A stretch of DNA of 10,271 nucleotides from Candidatus Helarchaeota ASGARD archaeon Hel_GB_B (GTDB lineage: Archaea; Asgardarchaeota; Lokiarchaeia; Helarchaeales; HEL-GB-B). Where the stretch lies: contig SUPR01000108.1 in assembly GCA_005191425.1 (NCBI GenBank), forward strand, positions 1 to 10,271, given 5' to 3'. This document shows positions 1-10,271 of this stretch, in pieces (position 1 is the stretch's first letter; each line of letters opens with the position of its first letter). A program made the position numbers and the translations under genes. The notes beneath the pieces were generated by a model, which saw nothing but the letters and a program-made list of their open reading frames with translations, had not been told where the DNA came from and searched no databases.

Positions 1-2
1 GT

Positions 3-461
3 GAAAAGCTAAAACTAGGGGATTTGTTTGCTACTATAGTCCGTTCTTTAGATATTTTAGCTTGTCAGAAGAAAATTTCTCTCAGTTATGCACAAGACGC
101 TGAAAAAATAAATATTTTTGGAGACGAAGCTAAATTGGAAAAATTATTATTGAACAGGGTTCGGAATGCTATTAAATATACGGAAGAAAAAGGAAAAATT
201 TATTTATCTGCACGCAAGAAAAAGCAAGAAATAAAAATTTATATTAAAGACACGGGAATCGGAATTCCAAAAGAAGATTTGCCTTTTATTTTTGAGCGTT
301 TTTATAGAGTAGACAAGGCTCGTTCTCGGGGGGAGGGCGGAACTGGGCTCGGTCTTTCTATTTGTAAATGGATAGTTGAGGCGCATGGAGGAAAGATTGA
401 AGTTGAAAGTGAAGTGGGGAAAGGAACCACTTTTATTATTTCTTTGCCGATAAAAAAATAA
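3..461 (+). CDS. Two-component sensor histidine kinase, C-terminal HATPase_c domain (5'-partial; PhoR/WalK/CusS-like class)
   Basis: The frame is open from position 3 ([13 protein letters not shown]...), so the TTG at 24 is not the true start. Motifs seen: N box ([10 protein letters not shown]), G1 (IKDTGIGI), F box ([11 protein letters not shown]), G2 (GGTGLGLSI) and terminal GKGTTF. Stop is TAA at 459-461. Confidence 0.95.
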
Positions 462-472
462 AATATTTTTAT

Positions 473-502
473 AAAAATCTATTTGGAGAAAAGTAGATTT
501 TT
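473..502. other. AT-rich 9-bp inverted repeat (possible weak terminator, or operator over the -35 region of the next promoter)
   Basis: AAAAATCTA (473-481) and TAGATTTTT (494-502) are exact reverse complements with a 12-nt spacer. The stem is AT-rich, so it may be chance. Confidence 0.25.
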
Positions 503-524
503 TGTTATAATTGTGGTATAATAA
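494..524 (+). promoter_or_regulatory. Sigma70-type extended -10 promoter for the 547 operon
   Basis: TG-G-TATAAT at 514-522 is a perfect TGnTATAAT. There is no consensus -35 (TAGATT at 494-499). The sequence is repeated before the second operon. Confidence 0.75.
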
Positions 525-546
525 TTTACATTTTAAAAATTTTTGA

Positions 547-3297
547 ATGAGTAAATACTTTAAAATTTTTTTTGTTTTTATTTTATCTCTTGTTTTTATT
601 TTACCCATTTTAATAAAAGCAGAAGTAAATTCTTCTCCAGACGCTATAGCTATTAGAGTTCTGCCCAATGCAGAACATTTTAATATTTTAAGATGGTATA
701 ATTCCGAAGGTTTTAAGGGCTCGCCCCAACTCATATTAATAGATGATTATGAAGCTATTCGTGATGGTCGTACTGTATATGTTAATGCGGCTAATATAGA
801 CAGTAATAATCTTTATACCAATATTTATCTTATTTCTTATAATCAAGATGCTGAAAGCGCGACTTTAGATATATTTGGAGAAATTTTATCTCATTGGAAA
901 TTTAATATTAATTTAACGGAAGTGGGGGTATGTTCTGAGGACTCTGAAAAAAAATGTTTTTATGATTATGAATGTGGTGATAAAAGACAGCATTGTTTAA
1001 GTGATAAAGCCGAAACGATTAGGGATGTAAAACGCTTAGGGGATTTGGTTGAGATAAAAATATTATTGGAAAATTTTTTAGAAAAGGAAGGACATTATCC
1101 GATTCTTCGGTCTGGAACATATTTACCTAATAAAACTTTGTCTGTTTGGCCAAGCTGGAAAAGCAATTTATTTTATAAATTAGGAGTGAAGCCTATTTAT
1201 GATCCTGTTAATAAACTGGGAGATTGTGGAGATGATCGTTTTAATTTTATTACTTGCTGGGATGAGAAAACAAAAGAATTTGCTGATGGGGATTTATCAA
1301 CTCCGGAATTGGATTTGCCTCCTGATAGTTATATCTATTTTTATTCCGCCGCTGAAGATGGTTCCTCTTATGAAGCGTGTTCTATTATGGAATCAGGTTA
1401 TGTTAGCGGAGTAGACGGTGGGGATTGTGCGAGCTCGGAACAGCTAGTTATACATAATGTGCGTAAAAATCATCAACCGGTATTTTTATCCTCTGAATTT
1501 CCTATTAGTAATCCTTTCTCCGCATATGAAGGATATATTAAAGCTTATGATCCGGATGGTGATAATTTTACCTGGACGATGAATTTAATATCTTCTTGGA
1601 ATGCTTGGTTGCCAGGCGACACAATCCATATGAGATCAGGTCCCGTTTCTCATTTAGAGGTGGAAAAAGGGGTTCAGCATAAAAAGTTTTATGCAGATAC
1701 TTGCGGAGACTTTGGTACTTATACTTTCTCTATTACTTTAGATGATGGGCGAGGTCTTGCAAATAGTTTAAATGCTAAAAATTTTTCAGTTTTAATTGAT
1801 AATACTCCTCCTCGGATATTGGTTCCGGGAATAAGGCATGTGGTTAGTTCAACAAATCCATTAATTTTTAATATTAAAATGATGGATGAAAAAATTGATT
1901 ATCCTTTAACTTATTCTTTTCCGACTTCTTTAATTGCTGGTTTAAATGTTACTAATTTTAATATGGATGAAATGGGGTCTTATTATAATTTAGGAGTGGA
2001 AGGGATTACAAGTTCCTCCGATTATCCTCTTATTGTGGGAGAAGTTCCTTATTCTCAGAGAGTAAGGGGGATAAATAAATATAATCGGGAGACAACAAGA
2101 GATTTTGAGATTATTTTAATTAATCATGCTCCGGAAATTTTATCTACAGAAAGCTGTTCTGGGTATGCGACTGTGGGAGAAGCTTATCCTCCCTGTAAAA
2201 TAGAGGCGAGGGATATAGACGGACATCAATTTTCTTTTTCTTTAAGTTCCGCTCCAGCTGGACTTATAATTGATTCAGGAACTGGTATTATTTCCGGAAC
2301 GCCAAGTGTATCTTTTAGTGAAATATGTGTTCAGGTTACGGATGAATATGGACAGGATAGCTTGATAGAATGTTTTAACGTAGAGCCTTGTCGTGAGCAG
2401 GTGGTTGATTTTACAATAAATACGATAGCTGACGGACTTATTTTTGATAATGATGCAAATTATGCCATGGCCAACGATGAAGCTCCCAATAATTATTTAA
2501 AATTATCTTCGAGTATGCCGACTCCTTACATCTGGCTTGCTGATGCTCGCAATAATGAGGTTATAAAAATGAGAACTTTTGATGGTCTTCAGAAAACAAG
2601 GAATTTTGATGGTGATGGTCTTATAAATACTGGAATTTCAGAGCTTGAAGGAAATTTTCTAGGAGCTTTTAAAGTTGGATTTTCTCCTTCCCGTACTGCT
2701 GTTAACGCGGGAACAGGAGATGTTTGGATAGCGAATAGAGGCTATCCCAATACTTTAGGGGATACTACAATTACCAAGCTCGATGTAGATGGAAATCATT
2801 TAAAAACTTGTGAAACACAAGGAGAAGGAGCAAGGCCTGTGGTTATAGATAGACATGGGGATGTTTGGGTTGGAAATTATGAAAGTAATAATTTAGTTAA
2901 AATTTCCGGTGATGATCTTAGTTGTAATCCTTTGGTAAATTTATCGGTTTTATCTCCTTATGGTGCCGCTATTGATGCTAATGATAATATTTGGATTGTT
3001 AATGGCTTAAATTGTTCGGTAACTAGAGTTAATACTGAGACTCTAGATACTAAAGTTTTTGACTTAAGAGCTCTTTCAAATTGTGGAACAACAAATTCTA
3101 CTAATAATTATATATATGCTGTCTATGGGATTACGGTTGATACTTATAATAATGTTTGGGTAGCTGATCTGAATACCGGAATTTATAAAATAAATACATT
3201 ATTGGAAAATGTTGAACATTTTAATTTTTCTTCTGTTTTGAATCCTCCCTATGGACGCTCAAGAGGGGTTTCCGTTGATTCTTCGGGAGGAATTTGA
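547..3297 (+). CDS. N-terminal part of giant surface protein: signal peptide, DAIAIRV domain, pilin/GspG-like domain, three cadherin/Ig-like repeats, incomplete NHL/Vgb-like beta-propeller
   Basis: Hydrophobic signal peptide ending ILIKA. RDVKRLGDLVEIKILLENFLEKEGHYP is a pilin-like helix motif. Repeats start NHQP (1468), NTPP (1801) and NHAP (2122), with DxDG and APAGLIIDSGTGIISGTP motifs. Propeller blades follow DxxG/NxVW. Confidence 0.8.
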   Translation: MSKYFKIFFVFILSLVFILPILIKAEVNSSPDAIAIRVLPNAEHFNILRWYNSEGFKGSPQLILIDDYEAIRDGRTVYVNAANIDSNNLYTNIYLISYNQDAESATLDIFGEILSHWKFNINLTEVGVCSEDSEKKCFYDYECGDKRQHCLSDKAETIRDVKRLGDLVEIKILLENFLEKEGHYPILRSGTYLPNKTLSVWPSWKSNLFYKLGVKPIYDPVNKLGDCGDDRFNFITCWDEKTKEFADGDLSTPELDLPPDSYIYFYSAAEDGSSYEACSIMESGYVSGVDGGDCASSEQLVIHNVRKNHQPVFLSSEFPISNPFSAYEGYIKAYDPDGDNFTWTMNLISSWNAWLPGDTIHMRSGPVSHLEVEKGVQHKKFYADTCGDFGTYTFSITLDDGRGLANSLNAKNFSVLIDNTPPRILVPGIRHVVSSTNPLIFNIKMMDEKIDYPLTYSFPTSLIAGLNVTNFNMDEMGSYYNLGVEGITSSSDYPLIVGEVPYSQRVRGINKYNRETTRDFEIILINHAPEILSTESCSGYATVGEAYPPCKIEARDIDGHQFSFSLSSAPAGLIIDSGTGIISGTPSVSFSEICVQVTDEYGQDSLIECFNVEPCREQVVDFTINTIADGLIFDNDANYAMANDEAPNNYLKLSSSMPTPYIWLADARNNEVIKMRTFDGLQKTRNFDGDGLINTGISELEGNFLGAFKVGFSPSRTAVNAGTGDVWIANRGYPNTLGDTTITKLDVDGNHLKTCETQGEGARPVVIDRHGDVWVGNYESNNLVKISGDDLSCNPLVNLSVLSPYGAAIDANDNIWIVNGLNCSVTRVNTETLDTKVFDLRALSNCGTTNSTNNYIYAVYGITVDTYNNVWVADLNTGIYKINTLLENVEHFNFSSVLNPPYGRSRGVSVDSSGGI

Positions 3298-3576
3298 ATT
3301 ACCTTTGACCTTAGCAATCAAGTAATTAATATTCCTAATTCAAACAATCCTTCAGTTTATAACGCTTATGGTAGTGGTCTCTTTAGTCCCAGCCCATCAT
3401 CTTATTTCGTTGGTATAGCTGGAGATTCTGAAGGAAAAACTTGGGCTATTAATAGAGGTAATTTTACGAATGGGGAGGACGGAGCAGCTGTTGTATATAA
3501 TAGTTTAGGTCCTACGGGACATTTTTATAATGCTAATTCTGACCGGGGGAACGAATATACCTATACTTATAGCGAT

Positions 3577-5586
3577 ATGACTGGGCTTAATAGGGCTATG
3601 ATTTTTAGAAGTGGTGTTTGGTATCATCAATATGATAGCGCTTATGACGGGCAGTATTGGGGGCACGTATCTTTTAAGAAAATTATTCCTGGAGAGAAAC
3701 AGCAAGTAGAGCTTCTTCTGCGTTCTGGTGATAGTGCTGATCTTAGTTCGGAGACATGGATTAATTCAGATACTTGGAATAATTTAAATTTTAAGGATTC
3801 AAGAAGAAGAGGTCGTTATCTTGATTTAAAAATAAAAATGAAATCTCAGGAAAGAGGAATTAGTCCAGTAATTTGGGATGTGCGTATTAGCTGTGATTCT
3901 CCTTTCTGTGGAGATGATATTCAGCAAGCTCCTAATGATGATGGATTTATGGAGCAGTGTGATGGATCTAGTAATGTTTCTAATGGAGATCCCTTAGGTT
4001 GTTTGGTAAATTGTGAATGTGCTTCAAAATATCCTTGGGATGGCTTTGAATGTCAGGCGCCCTGTGATGATTTTGACTTTGTAGAAGAAAATTCTTGGAC
4101 TGGCTCTTCGATTTTACCTAGTTATAATCAGGTTATGATGACTCCCATAGCTGCTGATCTTGATGGAGATGGAAATATTGAAATACTTTTCAATGCCTTT
4201 GAGGGAAGTCATTATAATGGTGGTGGTTATTTAAGGGTTATTAATGGGAGAGATGCTACGGATAAATTTATAGCTGAAGGAGGTAATCCTCTTTACGAAA
4301 TATTTCCAGGAAGTAATCTAGCAGTTGGGGATATTGATAGTACTAGCCCTGGACTTGAAATTTTAGCTATAGCTGCTCAAGATTATATTGATTCTGGTTC
4401 TCCTCCTCATTATCTTATAGCTTTTAATGCAAATGGGGATTTTAAATGGTTTGGGCATAATACAGCAGGAAAATATGCTATAGGAGGTGGTCTAGCAGGT
4501 AGCCGAGAAGTTAGCTTGGTAGATATGGATTTAGATGGAGATGTGGAAATAGTGGTAGGTAACTATGTTTTTGACCATAACGGTAATTTTTTATGGGAAG
4601 CGGATTCAGCTGTTTTTGGATCTGCTCAAATTAATGCAATCGCGGATTTAAACGGGGATAATTATCCGGAAGTTGTTAGTCCTTCGGGTGCTTATCATTT
4701 TAATCCAACATTAGGAAGTTATGAATCATATTATACAATTCTCCCTGGTAATCCAGGATATGTCACTGTCGGATATATGGCAGTAGCTAATATTTTTGAT
4801 GATGATCCATATCCAGAAATAATATCAGTATCCTATAATCAAGTAAGAATTTTAAGTCATGAAGGGGATTTAGAGGATTATGCTTTCATTCCTTTTGTGA
4901 CGGGCTCTGCAGATCCTGACTGTGTTGCTGTAAATACTACTTGGCCACCCTCTAGTCCAATCACTGCAAATAAATATACTTGCCATAACCGTGGGGGAGG
5001 ACCTTCTACTGTAGCTGATTTTGATGGTGATGGTTTTCCGGAAATAGGAGTGGCTGCTGCTGATTATTATATTGTTTATGATATTGTTGGCAATAAATTA
5101 GAAGAACTTTGGAAAGTTCGCAATCATGATTATTCTTCGGCCATGACCGGATCATCCGTTTTTGATTTTAATGGTGATGGTCGAGCAGAAGTACTTTATG
5201 CGGATGAAAGTAATTTTATGATATTGAGAGGTTCGGACGGTACAGTTTTAAACATAATACCAAATTGTTCAGCGACTTTGTGGGAAAATCCGATTATAGT
5301 TGATATTGATAATGATGATATGGCGGAAGTTATTATTGCCGCTAATAATTATGGGAATTGTGGGGGCACATTTCCTACTGGGACATCTCCCTATACAGGA
5401 ATTAGAATTTTTGGAAGTGCGAATATAGATTGTATTTGGGAGGATGCTCGAGAGATATGGAATCAACATTCATATAATATAGTGAATATAAATACTGACG
5501 GTACTATTCCTTCTCCTATGGAAAGGAATTGGGAATATCCTCTCGGAAATCCTTATAATAATTATCGTCAGAATATCGCTGATTAA
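3577..5586 (+). CDS. C-terminal part of giant surface protein: beta-sandwich, Cys-rich (Myxococcus-type) repeat, FG-GAP/VCBS beta-propeller
   Basis: CGDDIQQAPNDDGFMEQCDG, then multiple FG-GAP-like loops (ADLDGDGNIEI, VDMDLDGDVEI, ADLNGDNYPEV, ADFDGDGFPEI, FDFNGDGRAEV, VDIDNDDMAEV) and WNQHSYNIVNINTDGTIP. There is no signal peptide or RBS, so this is probably not an independent gene. Confidence 0.75.
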   Translation: MTGLNRAMIFRSGVWYHQYDSAYDGQYWGHVSFKKIIPGEKQQVELLLRSGDSADLSSETWINSDTWNNLNFKDSRRRGRYLDLKIKMKSQERGISPVIWDVRISCDSPFCGDDIQQAPNDDGFMEQCDGSSNVSNGDPLGCLVNCECASKYPWDGFECQAPCDDFDFVEENSWTGSSILPSYNQVMMTPIAADLDGDGNIEILFNAFEGSHYNGGGYLRVINGRDATDKFIAEGGNPLYEIFPGSNLAVGDIDSTSPGLEILAIAAQDYIDSGSPPHYLIAFNANGDFKWFGHNTAGKYAIGGGLAGSREVSLVDMDLDGDVEIVVGNYVFDHNGNFLWEADSAVFGSAQINAIADLNGDNYPEVVSPSGAYHFNPTLGSYESYYTILPGNPGYVTVGYMAVANIFDDDPYPEIISVSYNQVRILSHEGDLEDYAFIPFVTGSADPDCVAVNTTWPPSSPITANKYTCHNRGGGPSTVADFDGDGFPEIGVAAADYYIVYDIVGNKLEELWKVRNHDYSSAMTGSSVFDFNGDGRAEVLYADESNFMILRGSDGTVLNIIPNCSATLWENPIIVDIDNDDMAEVIIAANNYGNCGGTFPTGTSPYTGIRIFGSANIDCIWEDAREIWNQHSYNIVNINTDGTIPSPMERNWEYPLGNPYNNYRQNIAD

Positions 5587-5590
5587 AAAA

Positions 5591-6463
5591 ATGGAAAATC
5601 AAGATAATCTACAAAAAAAGAATATTAAAGTAAAAATATTTTTATTATTAATATTGTTTTTATTTATAATTCTATTTATTTTGTTTCTTTATTTTTGGAT
5701 GCAGAATCTTAAAAATAAAGAAGATCTTAATTTGGGTGGAAATAATTTAGTAGAAACATCTTTTGAAAAAGAAGAAAAAATAAAAAATAATTCTTCAAAA
5801 TCGCCCTATAGTTCGGAGTATATTAAAACTAAAGAAGCTTTAGCTGAGAAAAATATTGAGAAATGTAGAGAATTAGAAGATGAACATAAAATTTCCAATT
5901 GTATTTATTCTTTAGCTACGCAGTATAAAGACAAAGAACTTTGTTTTCAGATAGAGGATTCTCAACTTCAGGAAAAATGTCAGGAATTTTTTCTTTATCT
6001 TCAGGTGCTTGAAGATAAAAATGCTGAGGAATGTTTAAAACTTCAGTTTAATAATTTTAAAGAGGCTTGTTTAAATACTATTTTTCAGGAGAAAAATAAT
6101 ATTTCCTATTGTGCAAATTTTTCCGATTTGGTCCGAGATAAATGTGAAAATATGTATTATAAACAGAAGGCTATTAAGGAAAAAGATAGCGCTGTTTGTT
6201 CTCAGATAAATGATGAGGGGAAAATGGAATCTTGTTATCATGTTTTGGAAAACACCATAGCTGATTCGGACGGAGATGGCTTAAGCGATACGATGGAGCG
6301 TTCTTATGGACTTAATCCGCATGATAGTGATACAGATAGCGATGGCTTAGATGATAGCAGTGAATTTAATTATAAAAGTGATCCTAAAAACCCCGATACG
6401 GACGGAGATGGCTATTTAGACGGTGCAGAAGTGGAGGCTGGCTTTAGCCCGATAGGAGAGTAA
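5591..6463 (+). CDS. Membrane-anchored protein with five Cys-pair repeats and C-terminal DxDxDG calcium-binding (bacterial thrombospondin type 3-like) repeats
   Basis: One N-terminal TM helix follows a Lys-rich start. C-x11-C occurs 4 times and C-x10-C once (5864-6235). DSDGDGLSD, DTDSDGLDD and DTDGDGYLDG lie in 6263-6460. The gene starts 4 nt after the upstream stop. Confidence 0.8.
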   Translation: MENQDNLQKKNIKVKIFLLLILFLFIILFILFLYFWMQNLKNKEDLNLGGNNLVETSFEKEEKIKNNSSKSPYSSEYIKTKEALAEKNIEKCRELEDEHKISNCIYSLATQYKDKELCFQIEDSQLQEKCQEFFLYLQVLEDKNAEECLKLQFNNFKEACLNTIFQEKNNISYCANFSDLVRDKCENMYYKQKAIKEKDSAVCSQINDEGKMESCYHVLENTIADSDGDGLSDTMERSYGLNPHDSDTDSDGLDDSSEFNYKSDPKNPDTDGDGYLDGAEVEAGFSPIGE

Positions 6464-6501
6464 TTTTTTAAGGTTTAGCGTTTATGATAATTTATATAAA
6501 A

Positions 6502-6533
6502 TAGATTTTTTTATTATAATTGTGGTATAATAA
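6502..6533 (+). promoter_or_regulatory. Sigma70-type extended -10 promoter for the 6669-9390 operon, near-identical to the one at 494-524
   Basis: TG-G-TATAAT at 6523-6531. TTATAATTGTGGTATAATAA (6514-6533) is identical to 505-524. Confidence 0.75.
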
Positions 6534-6545
6534 ATTTAAAGTTTA

Positions 6546-6630
6546 AAGAGACTAAGTCACTACGATTTTCATTGCTCAAAATTATATTTTAATATTTATT
6601 TGTTTTAAAATCGTAGTGACTTAGTCTCTT
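6546..6630. repeat. Perfect 24-bp inverted repeat with 37-nt spacer (REP/REPIN-like, MITE-like or leader RNA hairpin)
   Basis: AAGAGACTAAGTCACTACGATTTT (6546-6569) is the exact reverse complement of AAAATCGTAGTGACTTAGTCTCTT (6607-6630). Confidence 0.9.
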
Positions 6631-6668
6631 GGTTTCCCATCCGATTTTTTAATTTTGATTTTCCCAAT

Positions 6669-7067
6669 ATGTCCCCCAAAAACGCCATCCTAATTCTAAT
6701 CATCATGGCCTGTATATCATTTGGCACGCTTTTTTATTTGGTGAAGGATAGGAAGCTGGTTAATAGAGTTCAAGATGATGAGACGATGATGGTAGAGATG
6801 GAAAAAGATATAGGAACAGAGCTAAGCGAAGAACAAAAAAAAGACTTAGAATTAAAAAATTATATCAATAATTTAAAACAAAGTGATATTAAAGAATATG
6901 ATAGAGTATTACCCGAAACTACTCAAAAAATAGTTGATTTGATTAATGAACGAAGTGATGAAAAAAGAGCTTTAATGACTGAGAAAGAGAAACAAGCAGA
7001 AAAAGAAAGAATAGATGAGATTAAAAAAAGAGTAGATATGATTAATGCAGAAATGGAAAAAGAATAA
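6669..7067 (+). CDS. Hypothetical single-pass membrane protein with a highly charged, probably helical/coiled-coil C-terminal region
   Basis: 132-aa ORF with N-terminal TM (AILILIIMACISFGTLFYLV) and an E/K-rich remainder; no family recognised. Confidence 0.7.
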   Translation: MSPKNAILILIIMACISFGTLFYLVKDRKLVNRVQDDETMMVEMEKDIGTELSEEQKKDLELKNYINNLKQSDIKEYDRVLPETTQKIVDLINERSDEKRALMTEKEKQAEKERIDEIKKRVDMINAEMEKE

Positions 7068-7093
7068 TTTTAAATATAAATTAAATTTAAAAT

Positions 7094-7915
7094 ATGCAAA
7101 TTAAAAAACATTTTAAACTAGCTACTTATCTAGCTATCACTGTATTTCTTACTTTAGGATTATCTATTTCTTTCCAGTCTCTTTTAGCCTCTTGGCAAGC
7201 ACCAGGGTCAGCTCCGCCTTCAAGCACTATTTCAGCACCAATAAATGAGGGGGTTAATTTGCAAGCAAAATATGGACATCTATTACTGGATGGTAATGCT
7301 TCTCTAAATTCACCCGTTCTTCAATTGACTAATAAGCATGCCAGTGAAAATTCTTTTTTAGTGGAAGATGAAGCAGGCGATACAAGTCCTTTTGTAATTG
7401 ATAAAGATGGGAATGTTGGGATTGGAAAAACTGTTCCAGTGGCAAAACTGGATTTAGCTGGTAATTTAAATATGAATTTAAATGAAATTAGAAGTGTGTC
7501 AACTATAACTCTGTATGCTCTTCCTGATGATTGGATGAGATTATATACTATAGATGGTAATAACTCTCATATCGAGTGGGGAGATAACGCAGATGATAAA
7601 TTAGTCTTTTCGTTTAATTATTGGGATCCTGCACATCCTGAGCTTGATAAAGATGCATTAACACTAATAGCTAATGGAAATGTGGAAATTAGTAATGGTA
7701 ACCTAATGCTTTCGGATAGTTGGATTTCTAATGATGGAGAAAATAAAGGCATTAGAATTGATGATGATGGCAATGTGGGGATTGGGACGGATAATCCAAC
7801 GCAAAAGCTAGAAGTCGTTGGCGGACTTATAAAAGCGACCGGTGGGCTTATTATAGAAACAAGAGCTACTGATCCAGACACTCCAGTTAATGGCCAGATT
7901 TGGCTTATTAATTGA
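7094..7915 (+). CDS. Secreted or anchored fibre-like protein with GNVGIG repeats (Parcubacteria-type surface protein)
   Basis: N-terminal hydrophobic segment, then SWQAPGSAPP...APINEG...QAKYG. GNVGIG occurs at 7409-7426 and 7769-7786, with a GNVEIS variant at 7676. The C-terminus is GGLIIETRATDPDTPVNGQIWL. Confidence 0.75.
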   Translation: MQIKKHFKLATYLAITVFLTLGLSISFQSLLASWQAPGSAPPSSTISAPINEGVNLQAKYGHLLLDGNASLNSPVLQLTNKHASENSFLVEDEAGDTSPFVIDKDGNVGIGKTVPVAKLDLAGNLNMNLNEIRSVSTITLYALPDDWMRLYTIDGNNSHIEWGDNADDKLVFSFNYWDPAHPELDKDALTLIANGNVEISNGNLMLSDSWISNDGENKGIRIDDDGNVGIGTDNPTQKLEVVGGLIKATGGLIIETRATDPDTPVNGQIWLIN

Positions 7916-7950
7916 TTAATAAGGATTAAATTTATTTTGAAAATATTATC

Positions 7951-9390
7951 ATGAGAAAAATATTTAAAATTACAATTTTTGCTTTTCTCTTACTTATTTT
8001 TGTTTTACCAAAATATGTAGAGTCTGCGGAGTGGGATATTGTTAATACGGTTGATTTGGATAATATTTCTTTTCTTCTTCCTATGATAGCCGGGTTGGAT
8101 GAGGAAGGTTTTACTCCTGTAGGTTCTTGGTATTTTGTAGAAGAAGAGGGGGATTGGCTTTATGTATTTAGAGCTCCTGCAAATGGTCAATCATATATTG
8201 AGAAAAGAAGAAAATCAGATTTAAGCTTGGCAGGAGGTTGGACTTTTGATGCTGGTATGACGATTTTTGATTATGAGATTGATGAAAATTATATATATGT
8301 AATTGGTGTTAATGCTACAACATTTGATCTACCTGGAAGGGGTCCTCTTTATGTTTCTAAAATAAACAAAAGCAATGGTTTACCACAAGTTTATAAAGAG
8401 AATGCCGGGCCTTATGGTGGGGGATATGATCCAGTAGTTATAAATATTAATTTTCCTCATTATAATAAATTAAGCTCTGATGAAAATTTTTTATATTTTA
8501 GTGGGGTTACTTTTGATAATGATAGTTGGCAGACAGGAGATTGGATAATTGGGCGATTAAATAAAAGTGATTTAAAAATTGGTAGTGGTTGGGTTAAAAC
8601 TGATCTGTTGGTTTATGATACCTCCTTAATATTTTCCATAGTTGATGACCTTACTGTATATAATGGAGAGCTTTATGCTTTTGGTATGAATGAGTTAGGA
8701 CCATCTGGAGAATATGCTAAATATATGATAGACAGAAGGGACGTTTCAGGAACTTCAAATTGGAATATGGGTTTTACTAGTGTTCCCATGTGTTGTGCAA
8801 AATATGCTTTTGATGGAAATAATTTATATATAGAAAATTACCTTGGAACCGAAACTAAAAAATTTGATATTATCACAAAGCAAGAATTGCCCTATGACAC
8901 TTGGCCATCTCCAGTATTTGAAGGAGATTATTATTACAAACAAAGCAGAAAAACATATTATGAGGAAAATTCTATGCAGGGAGATTTTGGTTGGCGGATT
9001 GATAAATTTCATAAAGACGATTTAAATACTTCTGTTTCGTTTTTAGAAGAGAACCCACATGTTTCTGGGGCGGCTGGGTCTGAAGATGTAATCCAAAGGA
9101 TGGTTTATGACGATAGTGCTATATATATTATTGAAAAATGTGTGGGCTGTTCTAAAATGCGCTTGAGAAAAATTGAAAAAGAAGCTCCTGCTTATATTGA
9201 TATCGGCCTAAAAGTCTACAACGGGACAGAAACAGTTTCTATCGCCTGTGAATCAGGAGAAGCATCTCCTTTAAGAATAAGTAAGGGTGGGATTACTTAT
9301 GGAATAGTTTTAGTAGATCCGGGAGACTCTGCTGACTCAGGCGTGCATATTAGGGTTAATGGAGCCACAAAGGCATTGAGAAAAATGTAA
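7951..9390 (+). CDS. Secreted putative beta-propeller protein with a distinct 65-aa C-terminal module
   Basis: Signal peptide, seven (D/E)xxxLY-type repeats each followed by an I-x-K/R strand, and C-terminal YIDIGLKVYNG...SPLRISKGG..YGIVLVDP...KALRKM. Confidence 0.75.
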   Translation: MRKIFKITIFAFLLLIFVLPKYVESAEWDIVNTVDLDNISFLLPMIAGLDEEGFTPVGSWYFVEEEGDWLYVFRAPANGQSYIEKRRKSDLSLAGGWTFDAGMTIFDYEIDENYIYVIGVNATTFDLPGRGPLYVSKINKSNGLPQVYKENAGPYGGGYDPVVININFPHYNKLSSDENFLYFSGVTFDNDSWQTGDWIIGRLNKSDLKIGSGWVKTDLLVYDTSLIFSIVDDLTVYNGELYAFGMNELGPSGEYAKYMIDRRDVSGTSNWNMGFTSVPMCCAKYAFDGNNLYIENYLGTETKKFDIITKQELPYDTWPSPVFEGDYYYKQSRKTYYEENSMQGDFGWRIDKFHKDDLNTSVSFLEENPHVSGAAGSEDVIQRMVYDDSAIYIIEKCVGCSKMRLRKIEKEAPAYIDIGLKVYNGTETVSIACESGEASPLRISKGGITYGIVLVDPGDSADSGVHIRVNGATKALRKM

Positions 9391-9512
9391 TAATGGTATT
9401 TGCTCACTTCCTTAAATTTATTATTAATTAAATATTAAAATATAAAATTTGATATATGTCAAAACTAAAGGAGGGAATGAAGTTGTATTGAGAATCAGTT
9501 TTTAAAATTTTT

Positions 9513-9581
9513 ATGTCAAATAGAGACGAATTTCAAATAGGTGAATTTTATTATGTCTTTAACTGTGGGACGAAAAGATGA
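9513..9581 (+). pseudogene. N-terminal remnant of a REP-associated/IS200-like Y1 (HUH) transposase
   Basis: Translates MSNRDEFQIGEFYYVFNCGTKR*, resembling the N-terminal G-E-x-Y-H-(I/V)-x-N-R-G-x-x-K-R motif I recall for RAYT-type transposases. It is only 22 codons, with H to Y and R to C changes. Confidence 0.55.
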
Positions 9582-9607
9582 TTGTTTTGGTTTCTTCTTA
9601 TTGTATG
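9577..9607 (+). repeat. 31-bp exact direct repeat, copy 1 (intergenic; copy 2 is inside tsaC)
   Basis: GATGATTGTTTTGGTTTCTTCTTATTGTATG occurs at both 9577-9607 and 10062-10092. Confidence 0.95.
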
Positions 9608-9778
9608 ACTAAGAGATAAAATTAGAAATTATAAATAATTTTAATAAGAACTTTATATAAAAAGTACAGTAAACTGTGTATTTTTAAATTAGTATTAAAA
9701 AGTAGCTATTTTTAGATAAAAGCGGCTATTTTCTATTTTGGTTTATTACTATTAAAATAACTTATTAGTTTCCAAAAA

Positions 9779-9790
9779 TTGTGTTAAAAT
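9779..9790 (+). promoter_or_regulatory. Possible extended -10 promoter upstream of tsaC
   Basis: TTGTG-T-TAAAAT (TG at 9782-9783, hexamer 9785-9790) resembles the TTGTG-G-TATAAT core of the other two promoters. Confidence 0.4.
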
Positions 9791-9945
9791 GGAATTACTA
9801 ACTCCATAATTATAAACCATAATGCCAATAAAAAACGCTATAAAAAAATTAAGCGCTATTTTGAAAAATGTATTATAAAAGTATATCAACAAATTAGTAT
9901 GCTTTTATGAAAAGTCTGCTAATAGACTATATGTAATTATGTAAT

Positions 9946-10271
9946 ATGCCAAAAATATTTATATACCCTACGGATACAATTTACGGCTTGGGATGCAAGG
10001 CGATAGATAGACAGGCTGTCCTGGAATTGTTTAAAATAAAAAAAAGAGACATTAATAAGCCGATGATTGTTTTGGTTTCTTCTTATTGTATGGTTAAAAA
10101 ATATTTTTTTATTTCTAAAAAACAAGAAAAATATTTACGGACTGTTTGGCCGAGAACTAGTGCTGACGCTCGAAAAGAAAATTTAGATTATAGAATAAGG
10201 TCGACTACGGTAATTTTAAAAGCTAGAGATAATTTTCCAAAAGAACTTTTGGCTAGTGATGAAAGTGGAGC
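9946..10271 (+). CDS. tsaC: L-threonylcarbamoyladenylate synthase (TsaC/YrdC/Sua5 family), 3'-partial
   Basis: I translated MPKIFIYPTDTIYGLGCKAIDRQAVLELFKIKKRDINKPMIVLVSS...VWP..., which has the hallmark PTDTxYGL and KxR...KP motifs. The frame is open to the window end and absent from the ORF track. Confidence 0.92.
   Translation, partial: MPKIFIYPTDTIYGLGCKAIDRQAVLELFKIKKRDINKPMIVLVSSYCMVKKYFFISKKQEKYLRTVWPRTSADARKENLDYRIRSTTVILKARDNFPKELLASDESG
10062..10092 (+). repeat. 31-bp exact direct repeat, copy 2 (within tsaC, encoding MIVLVSSYCM)
   Basis: Identical to 9577-9607. Confidence 0.95.

What the first reader, a model, noticed from the sequence alone, without database searches (positions are those of the whole stretch)
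547..5586. Giant mosaic adhesin combining a pilin-like domain, cadherin/Ig stalk and two different beta-propellers
Seen, in order: signal peptide, DAIAIRV domain (about 640-909), Cys knot, pilin-like domain (about 1000-1400), three Ig/cadherin-like repeats (1468-2388), seven-repeat NHL/Vgb-like propeller (2524-3585), beta-sandwich (about 3613-3894), Cys-rich repeat (from 3907), FG-GAP/VCBS propeller (about 4096-5580). From memory, PSRTAV/YTYSDMTG propellers and CGDG...EQCD repeats typify myxobacterial surface proteins, and the FG-GAP propeller ending WNQHxY resembles the Vibrio Bap1/RbmC biofilm-matrix propeller. Inference: a Ca-dependent host-attachment or matrix-binding protein of an episymbiont, built by shuffling payload domains onto a conserved N-terminal module. 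I do not recognise this architecture as characterised.
Basis: partly seen in the sequence, partly recalled or inferred. Interest (0 to 1): 0.72.

Follow-up and report, generated by a model that had tools for sequence, protein, structure and literature searches.

The report
Broken mosaic adhesin of a CPR bacterium

Summary

Three corrections apply:
- **Origin.** The contig is not from the Asgard archaeon whose bin holds it. It is a Patescibacteria (CPR) contaminant.
- **The TGA at 3295-3297.** It replaces a Trp found in all nine aligned relatives. TGA also ends another gene on this contig, and the contig's other 48 Trp codons are all TGG. The gene therefore carries a premature stop in all four assemblies that hold it. 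It is not recoded.
- **The front module.** Residues 26-300 define a large family with no Pfam or NCBIfam model (1,441 cluster representatives). Members carry swappable payloads and usually sit beside a membrane protein with Ca-binding repeats.

I found no other member with both propellers.

The scan has already described this family on other DNA (e1-2056617, e1-2054257). The attachment role and Ca dependence are inferred, not shown.

The parts
484..511 (+). Sigma-70-like promoter with extended -10 (TGGAGA-16-TG-TATAAT), 36 nt before the start codon
   Evidence: The position fits, but such matches are no more frequent in the window than in shuffles, so this is weak evidence.
547..621 (+). Sec-type signal peptide (residues 1-25, ...LIKA|EV); no prepilin G|FTLIE motif
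   Evidence: Read from the translation. Pfam N_methyl does not hit. Family members all begin with a comparable hydrophobic leader.
625..915 (+). First domain of the family-defining N-module ('DAIAIRV' domain, residues 27-123), PsbP/Mog1/DcrB/LpqN-like alpha/beta fold
   Evidence: AF2 pLDDT 93.5. VIA-align: 1tu1 Z 8.2, 3lyd Z 7.7, LpqN Z 7.0, DcrB Z 6.0. Atlas DcrB cluster TM 0.44. Foldseek against PDB is not significant.
931..996 (+). Four-cysteine knot linker (C129, C137, C143, C150)
   Evidence: Positions. These columns are nearly invariant in A2 and A6.
1003..1446 (+). Stemless ('headless') type IV pilin globular domain (residues 153-300): alpha1-C helix plus head, two conserved Cys pairs, no alpha1-N stem
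1447..2421 (+). Stalk of three cadherin-like / He_PIG Ig domains (residues 301-625)
2479..3591 (+). Seven-bladed NHL/Vgb-lyase/PknD-type beta-propeller (residues 645-1015)
   Evidence: Seven h-W-h-x-N blade motifs can be read.
3295..3297 (+). In-frame TGA replacing the Trp of blade 6 that all nine aligned relatives keep (residue 917): premature stop
3607..3894 (+). Beta-sandwich that always follows this propeller type (residues 1021-1116)
   Evidence: Co-occurs with the propeller in 18 of the 19 module-bearing relatives that have the propeller. Atlas TM 0.74-0.79. No Pfam model hits. Not folded with AF2 here.
3895..4086 (+). Cys-rich linker (residues 1117-1180, 8 Cys, CGDD...EQCD-like)
   Evidence: No Pfam or NCBIfam hit in the query. 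Relatives carry PF11617 or PF13948 repeats.
4087..5583 (+). Eight-bladed FG-GAP beta-propeller of the Bap1/RbmC type, without a beta-prism insert (residues 1181-1679)
5591..6463 (+). Conserved neighbour: single-pass membrane protein (290 aa) with Cys-containing helical repeats and three C-terminal TSP3 Ca-binding repeats
   Evidence: Pfam TSP3_bac E 4.9e-10. 38% identical to the gene after P0002. TM+TSP3 genes follow the module gene in 7 of 9 complete related loci.

Best explanation
Frame 547-5586 is one gene of a Patescibacteria (CPR) bacterium. Its contig was mis-binned into an Asgard MAG.

**Ancestral product.** The gene encodes a Sec-exported protein of 1,679 residues that belongs to a large, unnamed CPR family. 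The family is defined by its front module: a PsbP/DcrB-like domain, a 4-Cys knot, and a type IV pilin head that lacks the hydrophobic stem.

**Inferred mechanism.**
- The conserved front module holds or docks the protein at the producer's envelope.
- Three cadherin-like Ig domains form a stalk.
- The two propellers at the far end are the binding heads: a 7-blade NHL type with its sandwich, and an 8-blade Bap1/RbmC-type FG-GAP with eight acidic loops. They would bind glycan or exopolysaccharide ligands of a host cell or matrix, probably with Ca2+.
- Payloads are exchanged between family members by recombination behind the conserved module.

**State in this population.** Trp codon 917, kept in all nine aligned relatives, is TGA, and TGA is a true stop here. 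Normal translation therefore ends at residue 916, inside blade 6. The full-length protein can arise only by rare read-through. This is most likely a recent null or truncated allele.

**Shown:** the domain identities, the family, the mosaicism, the stop codon and the contig's origin. **Inferred:** anchoring by the module, the ligands, Ca dependence and loss of function.
For: **Origin**
- The module was not found in 40 Asgard relatives and has no paralogue in the bin.
- Its relatives lie in Parcubacteria, Falkowbacteria and Patescibacteria MAGs.
- C12 is the third most deviant of 175 contigs in 4-mer content.
- The sister contig L015 adds YchF, an OmpR-type regulator and a PAS kinase. Its YchF is 64% identical to CPR YchF, against a partial 47% match in the bin.

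**Domains**
-, plus 6MLT at E 1.2e-38. 6MLT is apo Bap1.
- The Bap1/RbmC propeller has eight blades and binds Vibrio exopolysaccharide directly (PMC10102183).

**Family and mosaicism**
-.
- Probable paralogue pairs with different payloads, inferred only from the identical longest-contig length listed for both: P0175/P0176 and P0004/P0186.

**Stop codon**
- Trp in 9 of 9 homologues.
- TGA ends ORF 7094-7915. The next gene, with its own signal peptide, starts at 7951.
- 29 TGG against 1 TGA in this gene, and 48 against 1 in-frame on the contig.
- TGA is present in all four assemblies, one of which has 7 SNPs elsewhere.
Against: - No binding, localisation or expression data exist.
- The 762 codons after the TGA are still fully open, while the other two frames hit a stop every 7-15 codons. 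Either the inactivation is very recent or the downstream part is still used.
- The four assemblies may derive from only one or two samples, and contigs hide minority alleles.
- The anchoring role of the module rests only on its conservation and position.
- In some relatives the module is internal or C-terminal (P0034; L013 and L014).
- VIA Z scores of 5-8 are in the range of common arrangements.
- The region 626-1679 was not folded with AF2 here.
Confidence: 0.6

Rival explanations
1. The organism reads TGA as Trp (code 4) or Gly (code 25), so the 1,679-residue protein is made normally.
For: The TGA lies exactly on a Trp column kept in all nine aligned relatives. The frame stays open for 762 further codons. 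Some CPR lineages are known to recode TGA (established knowledge: code 25 in Gracilibacteria and Absconditabacteria).
Against: TGA terminates ORF 7094-7915, followed by a 35-nt AT-rich spacer and then a new gene with its own signal peptide. There are 48 TGG and only one in-frame TGA on a contig of 33% GC, whereas AT-rich code-4 genomes prefer TGA (established knowledge). None of the module ORFs in the CPR genomes searched held an internal stop.
Confidence: 0.05
2. The TGA is leaky. Near-cognate tRNA-Trp reads it through often enough to give a useful amount of full-length adhesin, so the stop acts as a dimmer and not as a knockout.
For: The downstream frame is intact. The same allele is present in sequence variants that differ elsewhere. 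From established knowledge, UGA is the leakiest stop and is misread mainly as Trp, and a following A, as here (TGA-A), is a weak context in E. coli.
Against: No read-through element was looked for or seen. No relative has a stop at this position. There are no expression data.
Confidence: 0.17
3. The TGA is a sequencing or assembly error, or a minority allele, and the real gene is intact.
For: It is a single G-to-A difference from TGG. Depth is only about 10x.
Against: Four assemblies made by different pipelines all carry TGA: the MAG, an ENA MEGAHIT contig, an NCBI metagenome assembly and a Logan contig. The Logan contig covers 470-5709 with one unrelated difference.
Confidence: 0.06
4. The propellers are enzymes, not binding heads. 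The protein would be a surface-displayed polysaccharide or peptide lyase that attacks a host envelope.
For: There are weak Pfam hits to Vgb_lyase (E 1.2e-4) and to rhamnogalacturonan lyase RGL11_C (E 3.6e-4). The profile matches Vgb lyase at E 1.5e-35. Atlas neighbours include lambda-carrageenase-type propellers.
Against: All enzyme-family scores are below the curated cut-offs. The best solved relative of the C-terminal propeller is a non-enzymatic adhesin. Catalytic residues were not examined.
Confidence: 0.12
5. The contig truly belongs to the Asgard archaeon, which acquired a bacterial adhesin island by horizontal transfer.
For: A binning program placed it in the bin. Both are AT-rich (33% against 28% GC).
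Against: Every informative gene on the roughly 14.7 kb known is bacterial or CPR-like. It was not found in 40 relatives. Its composition is an outlier. The bin has 4.9% estimated contamination.
Confidence: 0.04

Closest known systems
Vibrio cholerae biofilm adhesins Bap1 and RbmC (PDB 6MLT; PMC10102183; bioRxiv 10.64898/2026.08.03.742583)
   Same: The C-terminal 500 residues are a homologous FG-GAP beta-propeller. phmmer gives E 1.2e-38, and the alignment runs from the first blade to the WNQxxYN...DGTIP end motif. There are eight acidic loops, matching eight blades. Atlas gives TM 0.81 to the two FG-GAP_3 + Beta-prism_lec clusters of Pseudomonadota, whose representatives are 957 and 691 aa; I take these to be RbmC and Bap1. 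Both are modular secreted adhesins.
   Different: There is no beta-prism lectin insert, no 57-aa loop and no mucin-binding domains. The propeller is a distal payload on a CPR-specific module and stalk, not the whole scaffold. Its nearest relatives are CPR and Myxococcota propellers at 41-45% identity, not Vibrio ones. The exopolysaccharide-pocket residues were not compared.
Modular type IV pilins, e.g. Streptococcus sanguinis PilB (PMC8179133)
   Same: A pilin-fold module sits in front of grafted adhesive modules (vWA, lectin, Ig). Homology of the pilin head to genuine CPR pilins is detectable.
   Different: The defining class III signal peptide and the hydrophobic alpha1-N stem are absent. 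They are replaced by a Sec leader, a PsbP/DcrB-like domain and a Cys knot. The protein therefore cannot polymerise into a pilus in the usual way.
Unnamed Patescibacteria 'stemless pilin' adhesin family, noted earlier in this scan (e1-2056617, e1-2054257)
   Same: The front module matches relatives at E about 1e-97 and 50-60% identity. Payloads are variable. The neighbouring membrane protein with Ca-binding repeats is the same kind.
   Different: This member adds a second, FG-GAP propeller behind the common NHL-propeller-plus-sandwich core. That combination was not found among the 98 full-length hits or in the metagenome scan. This member also carries a premature stop.
NHL / Vgb-lyase / PknD-sensor beta-propellers (PDB 3WWA, 2Z2P, 1RWI)
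   Same: The repeat family and fold match at profile E 1e-34 to 1e-46. There are seven blades, as in Vgb lyase.
   Different: It lies inside an extracellular adhesin-like protein and is always followed by a dedicated beta-sandwich. Pfam scores for the single sequence are below the gathering cut-offs.

Membership tests
Bap1/RbmC-type FG-GAP propeller adhesins | Eight-bladed FG-GAP-like beta-propeller homologous in sequence to Bap1 | tested here: met
   phmmer E 1.2e-38 to 6MLT over four collinear stretches. Eight DxDxDG-like loops, 7 by pattern and 1 by eye. Atlas TM 0.81 to the two FG-GAP_3 + Beta-prism_lec clusters of Pseudomonadota.
Bap1/RbmC-type FG-GAP propeller adhesins | Beta-prism lectin domain(s) inserted in or appended to the propeller | tested here: not met
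   No Beta-prism_lec or Jacalin hit in Pfam. The stretch that corresponds to the Bap1 insert is filled by ordinary blades.
Bap1/RbmC-type FG-GAP propeller adhesins | Binding of the producer's own exopolysaccharide in the propeller pocket | not testable with these tools
   Needs biochemistry. Pocket residues were not compared.
Type IV pilins / modular pilins | Class III signal peptide (G|FTLIE) and hydrophobic alpha1-N helix | tested here: not met
   No N_methyl hit. The protein has a Sec leader, and the helix starts at the alpha1-C part.
Type IV pilins / modular pilins | Pilin globular head (alpha1-C packed on a beta-sheet, C-terminal disulfide loop) | tested here: met
   hhalign 85% probability, E 5.9e-6, to a CPR pilin that carries N_methyl and T2SSG. 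VIA Z 4.2-5.9 to more than 12 pilins. Atlas TM 0.61. Cys pairs 227/237 and 278/294 are conserved. Disulfide geometry was not checked.
CPR stemless-pilin N-module adhesin family (unnamed) | Module of about 275 residues (DAIAIRV domain, 4-Cys knot, pilin head) behind a Sec leader | tested here: met
   1,441 representatives at E<=1e-3 and 574 at E<=1e-30. 12 invariant and 55 nearly invariant columns.
CPR stemless-pilin N-module adhesin family (unnamed) | Adjacent gene for a single-pass membrane protein with C-terminal TSP3 repeats | tested here: met
   Window 5591-6463. The same arrangement occurs in 7 of 9 complete related loci.
Cadherin-like / He_PIG Ig domains | Sequence and fold match to the domain family | tested here: met
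   He_PIG E 1e-9, above the cut-off. Profile E 5.6e-11 to the SraP cadherin-like module. Foldseek E about 1e-10 to cadherin ectodomains.
Cadherin-like / He_PIG Ig domains | Ca-binding linker motifs of classical cadherins | not tested
   Only NxPP-type boundaries were seen by eye.
NHL / Vgb-lyase propellers | Repeat family and blade number | tested here: met
   Profile E 1.2e-46 (Pizza7H), 1.5e-35 (Vgb) and 6.8e-34 (PknD). Seven blade motifs.
NHL / Vgb-lyase propellers | Vgb lyase catalytic residues | not tested
   No residue-level comparison was made. The Pfam Vgb_lyase score of 21.5 bits is below the cut-off of 50.
TGA-recoded bacteria (codes 4 / 25) | TGA never used as a terminator and used frequently in frame | tested here: not met
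   TGA ends ORF 7094-7915. There is 1 in-frame TGA against 48 TGG and 246 GGN codons on the contig.

The most novel reading that the evidence does not exclude
The stemless pilin module is a docking device. By mimicking a pilin head, it would plug swappable adhesin payloads onto a type IV pilus tip complex, or onto the conserved TSP3 membrane partner. This would give Parcubacteria-type CPR cells a cassette system for changing what they stick to. This member would be a double-headed version that was recently switched off. A further reading that the data do not exclude is that the contig was co-binned with the Asgard archaeon because this bacterium lives on it.
Probability: 0.2. Interest if true: 0.7.

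Novelty: new variant of a known kind. Interest (0 to 1): 0.42.

Why it matters
How ultra-small CPR bacteria recognise and hold on to their hosts is largely unknown outside Saccharibacteria. This gene belongs to a very large family of secreted proteins that no Pfam or NCBIfam model covers. The family keeps one front module and exchanges binding domains, which is the pattern expected of host-range determinants. The link to the Bap1/RbmC propeller, which is known to bind exopolysaccharide, gives a concrete and testable guess at the ligand class.

The case also has two practical lessons. A published Asgard MAG carries a CPR contig that could be mistaken for an archaeal adhesin. A TGA on a conserved Trp codon is not enough to infer recoding.

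Tried and rejected
- **TGA recoding across the bin.** TGA behaves like TAA and TAG after long ORFs, and rpoB has no internal stop. This describes the archaeon, not the contig's owner, so I repeated the test on the contig itself.
- **One alignment for residues 626-1679 (A3).** MAFFT laid the FG-GAP segments over the NHL region, so A3 was discarded. The two halves were aligned separately (A4, A5). The second structure job went to the N-module, so neither propeller was folded with AF2.
- **Foldseek of the N-module against PDB.** Nothing below E 0.03. Sequence and profile searches of the module against PDB also found nothing in positions 1-290.
- **Pfam and NCBIfam.** No model hits the module, the sandwich or the Cys-rich linker.
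- **Complex prediction, N-module against the TSP3 tail with Ca.** No answer, score 0.00. This is evidence neither for nor against binding.
- **Search for an intact TGG allele or a close strain in JGI metagenomes.** No exact match.
- **Search for relatives sharing the sandwich-to-FG-GAP junction.** Only the start of the propeller matched.
- **Runs X2, X3 and X5.** They cover the gene only in pieces, and cover at position 3297 could not be established.
- **Other CPR contigs in the bin.** None were recognised with the few CPR loci in hand.
- **Literature search for the module.** Nothing relevant found.
Full report
**What is there**

The window is a whole 10,271-bp contig (C12) of a 3.5-Mb bin. 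Under the standard code the finding splits into two ORFs, 547-3297 (916 aa) and 3577-5586 (669 aa). Both lie in the same frame and are separated by one TGA at 3295-3297. Read through, the frame gives 1,679 residues.

**Whose gene it is**

Earlier notes of the scan call the bin an Asgard (Helarchaeales-like) archaeon. The bacterial rpoB model matches it only weakly. The contig does not belong to that organism, for these reasons:
- The front module of the protein was not found in 40 relatives of the bin and has no paralogue elsewhere in the bin.
- Its relatives lie in MAGs titled Parcubacteria, Falkowbacteria or Patescibacteria.
- C12 is the third most deviant of 175 contigs in tetranucleotide content and has 33% GC against a median of 28%.
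- A sister contig from another assembly (L015) extends 4.4 kb upstream. It carries YchF, an OmpR-type response regulator and a PAS/HisKA kinase.
- That YchF is 64% identical to YchF of two CPR genomes. The bin offers only a partial 47% match to a different GTPase.

The contig is therefore a Patescibacteria contaminant. The bin's estimated contamination is 4.9%. The source is hydrothermal-vent or marine-sediment metagenomes.

**The stop codon**

In an alignment with nine homologues, residue 917 falls on a Trp column that all nine keep. It is the hallmark Trp of blade 6 of the first propeller. That could suggest TGA = Trp, but the contig itself says otherwise:
- ORF 7094-7915 ends in TGA. A 35-nt AT-rich spacer follows, and then a new gene with its own signal peptide.
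- The adhesin gene uses TGG 29 times and TGA once. The contig's genes use TGG 48 times.

The same TGA is present in all four assemblies that hold the gene. One of them differs by seven SNPs in the neighbouring kinase gene. An assembly error is therefore unlikely, although contigs cannot exclude a minority TGG allele.

The 762 codons after the TGA remain open, while the other frames hit a stop every 7-15 codons. The lesion is recent, or low-level read-through still matters.

As assembled, the product ends inside blade 6. The downstream ORF would start in blade 7 without a signal peptide.

**Domains**

- **Front module (26-300).** An AF2 model built on 146 relatives is confident (pLDDT 93.5, pTM 0.90).
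  - Its first domain (27-123) resembles PA94, LpqN, DcrB and PsbP/Mog1 at VIA Z 6-8. This is a lead, not proof. Foldseek found nothing significant.
  - After a nearly invariant 4-Cys knot comes a long helix and a small sheet (153-300). These match more than a dozen solved type IV pilins and pseudopilins (Z 4.2-5.9) and an Atlas cluster of CPR N_methyl/T2SSG proteins (TM 0.61).
  - The family profile also picks up genuine short CPR pilins that begin G|FTLIE. hhalign aligns module positions 133-202 to pilin residues 40-106 at 85% probability, E 6e-6.
  - So this is a pilin head whose hydrophobic stem has been replaced by a Sec leader and an extra domain.
- **Stalk (301-625).** Three cadherin/He_PIG-like Ig domains.
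- **First propeller (645-1015).** NHL/Vgb/PknD type with seven blade motifs. It is followed by a sandwich (1021-1116) that accompanies this propeller in all but one of the module-bearing relatives that have it, and in Myxococcota proteins.
- **Linker (1117-1180).** Cys-rich. It gets no family hit in this protein.
- **Second propeller (1181-1679).** FG-GAP type (Pfam E 1.4e-21) with eight acidic loops.
  - It is homologous to V. cholerae Bap1 (6MLT, E 1.2e-38).
  - It is structurally close to the two FG-GAP_3 + Beta-prism_lec clusters of Pseudomonadota, which I take to be RbmC and Bap1, and to Myxococcota FG-GAP clusters (TM 0.80-0.85).
  - It lacks the beta-prism insert.

**Family and mosaicism**

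- The front module defines 1,441 cluster representatives at 50% identity and 648 proteins of 483-2,000 aa. It sits almost always at residues about 30-300.
- The payloads behind it vary: He_PIG or cadherin alone, NHL propeller plus sandwich, VWA, TSP1, LamG, Cys-rich repeats, CarboxypepD_reg, a C25 peptidase domain, or FG-GAP.
- About 6% (18 of 301) of evenly sampled Patescibacteria species genomes carry a strong copy.
- The commonest relatives of this gene (P0002 and others, about 1,140 aa, 35-41% identity) stop after the sandwich.
- No hit combines both propellers, and no metagenome contig shares the junction.
- The nearest FG-GAP domains are again in module-bearing or Falkowbacteria proteins (41-45% identity). 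This points to shuffling within CPR and not to a recent import.
- The module gene is followed in 7 of 9 complete related loci, and here, by a single-pass membrane protein ending in three TSP3 Ca-binding repeats.
- In several loci it is preceded by a giant secreted protein that starts with a T4SS_pilin domain.

**How it most likely works**

These steps are inferred:
- The conserved module keeps the protein at the producer's envelope.
- The Ig stalk projects the propellers.
- The propellers bind carbohydrate-type ligands with Ca2+. This is by analogy with the Bap1/RbmC propeller, which binds exopolysaccharide directly (PMC10102183).

A structure-based test of module-to-TSP3 docking gave no answer. 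In this population the gene is probably a recent null or strongly down-tuned allele.

**Verdict**

It is wrong to read the TGA as Trp. The scan has already described the family on other genomes (e1-2056617, e1-2054257, e1-2070448, e1-2043047). I found no Pfam or NCBIfam model and no paper for it.

Noticed in passing
window 1-10271 (contig C12 of the bin): The whole contig is a Patescibacteria contaminant inside an Asgard archaeon MAG. Any 'archaeal adhesin' or 'archaeal two-component system' annotated from it would be wrong.
   Followed up: yes
bin contigs C26, C41, C122, C167 (not in the window): A pair of ORFs of 183 aa and 450-452 aa, in one frame and separated by a single TGA, recurs on four contigs of the archaeal bin. 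It could be an IS-like element or a gene with a conserved in-frame TGA.
   Followed up: no
window 5591-6463: A 290-aa single-pass membrane protein with Cys-containing helical repeats and three TSP3 Ca-binding repeats. It is a conserved neighbour of module genes across divergent CPR genomes.
   Followed up: partly
window 7094-7915 and 7951-9390: Two secreted or membrane proteins (273 and 479 aa) with no Pfam or NCBIfam family. The first ends ...GQIWLIN just before a TGA stop and a small hairpin.
   Followed up: no
L007, L008, L009, L010, L012 (genes directly upstream of the module gene): Giant secreted proteins of 1,957-2,305 aa. The two I scanned (L008, L012) begin with a T4SS_pilin (PF18895) domain and carry Ig, fn3 or Fib_succ_major domains. 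In L012 and L013 the cluster lies just before genes that look like ftsA and ftsZ (judged by eye from their N-terminal sequences, not scanned).
   Followed up: partly
L013 3531-8864, L014 3351-9011, P0034: In a few relatives the 'N-terminal' module sits at the C-terminal end or in the middle of a protein of 1,500-1,900 aa. This does not fit a simple N-terminal anchor role.
   Followed up: no
window 112-266 (histidine kinase gene end): Seven SNPs cluster within 155 nt between this contig and the ENA assembly L015, while the 5-kb adhesin gene is identical. Two of the seven (112, 157) recur in a 2017 sediment run of another study.
   Followed up: no
P0009, P0016, P0029, P0172, P0193, P0197, P0219, P0230: In these relatives an insert of 150-250 residues separates the first module domain from the pilin head. 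It is LamG-like where Pfam names it. The two halves of the module can therefore be separated.
   Followed up: no
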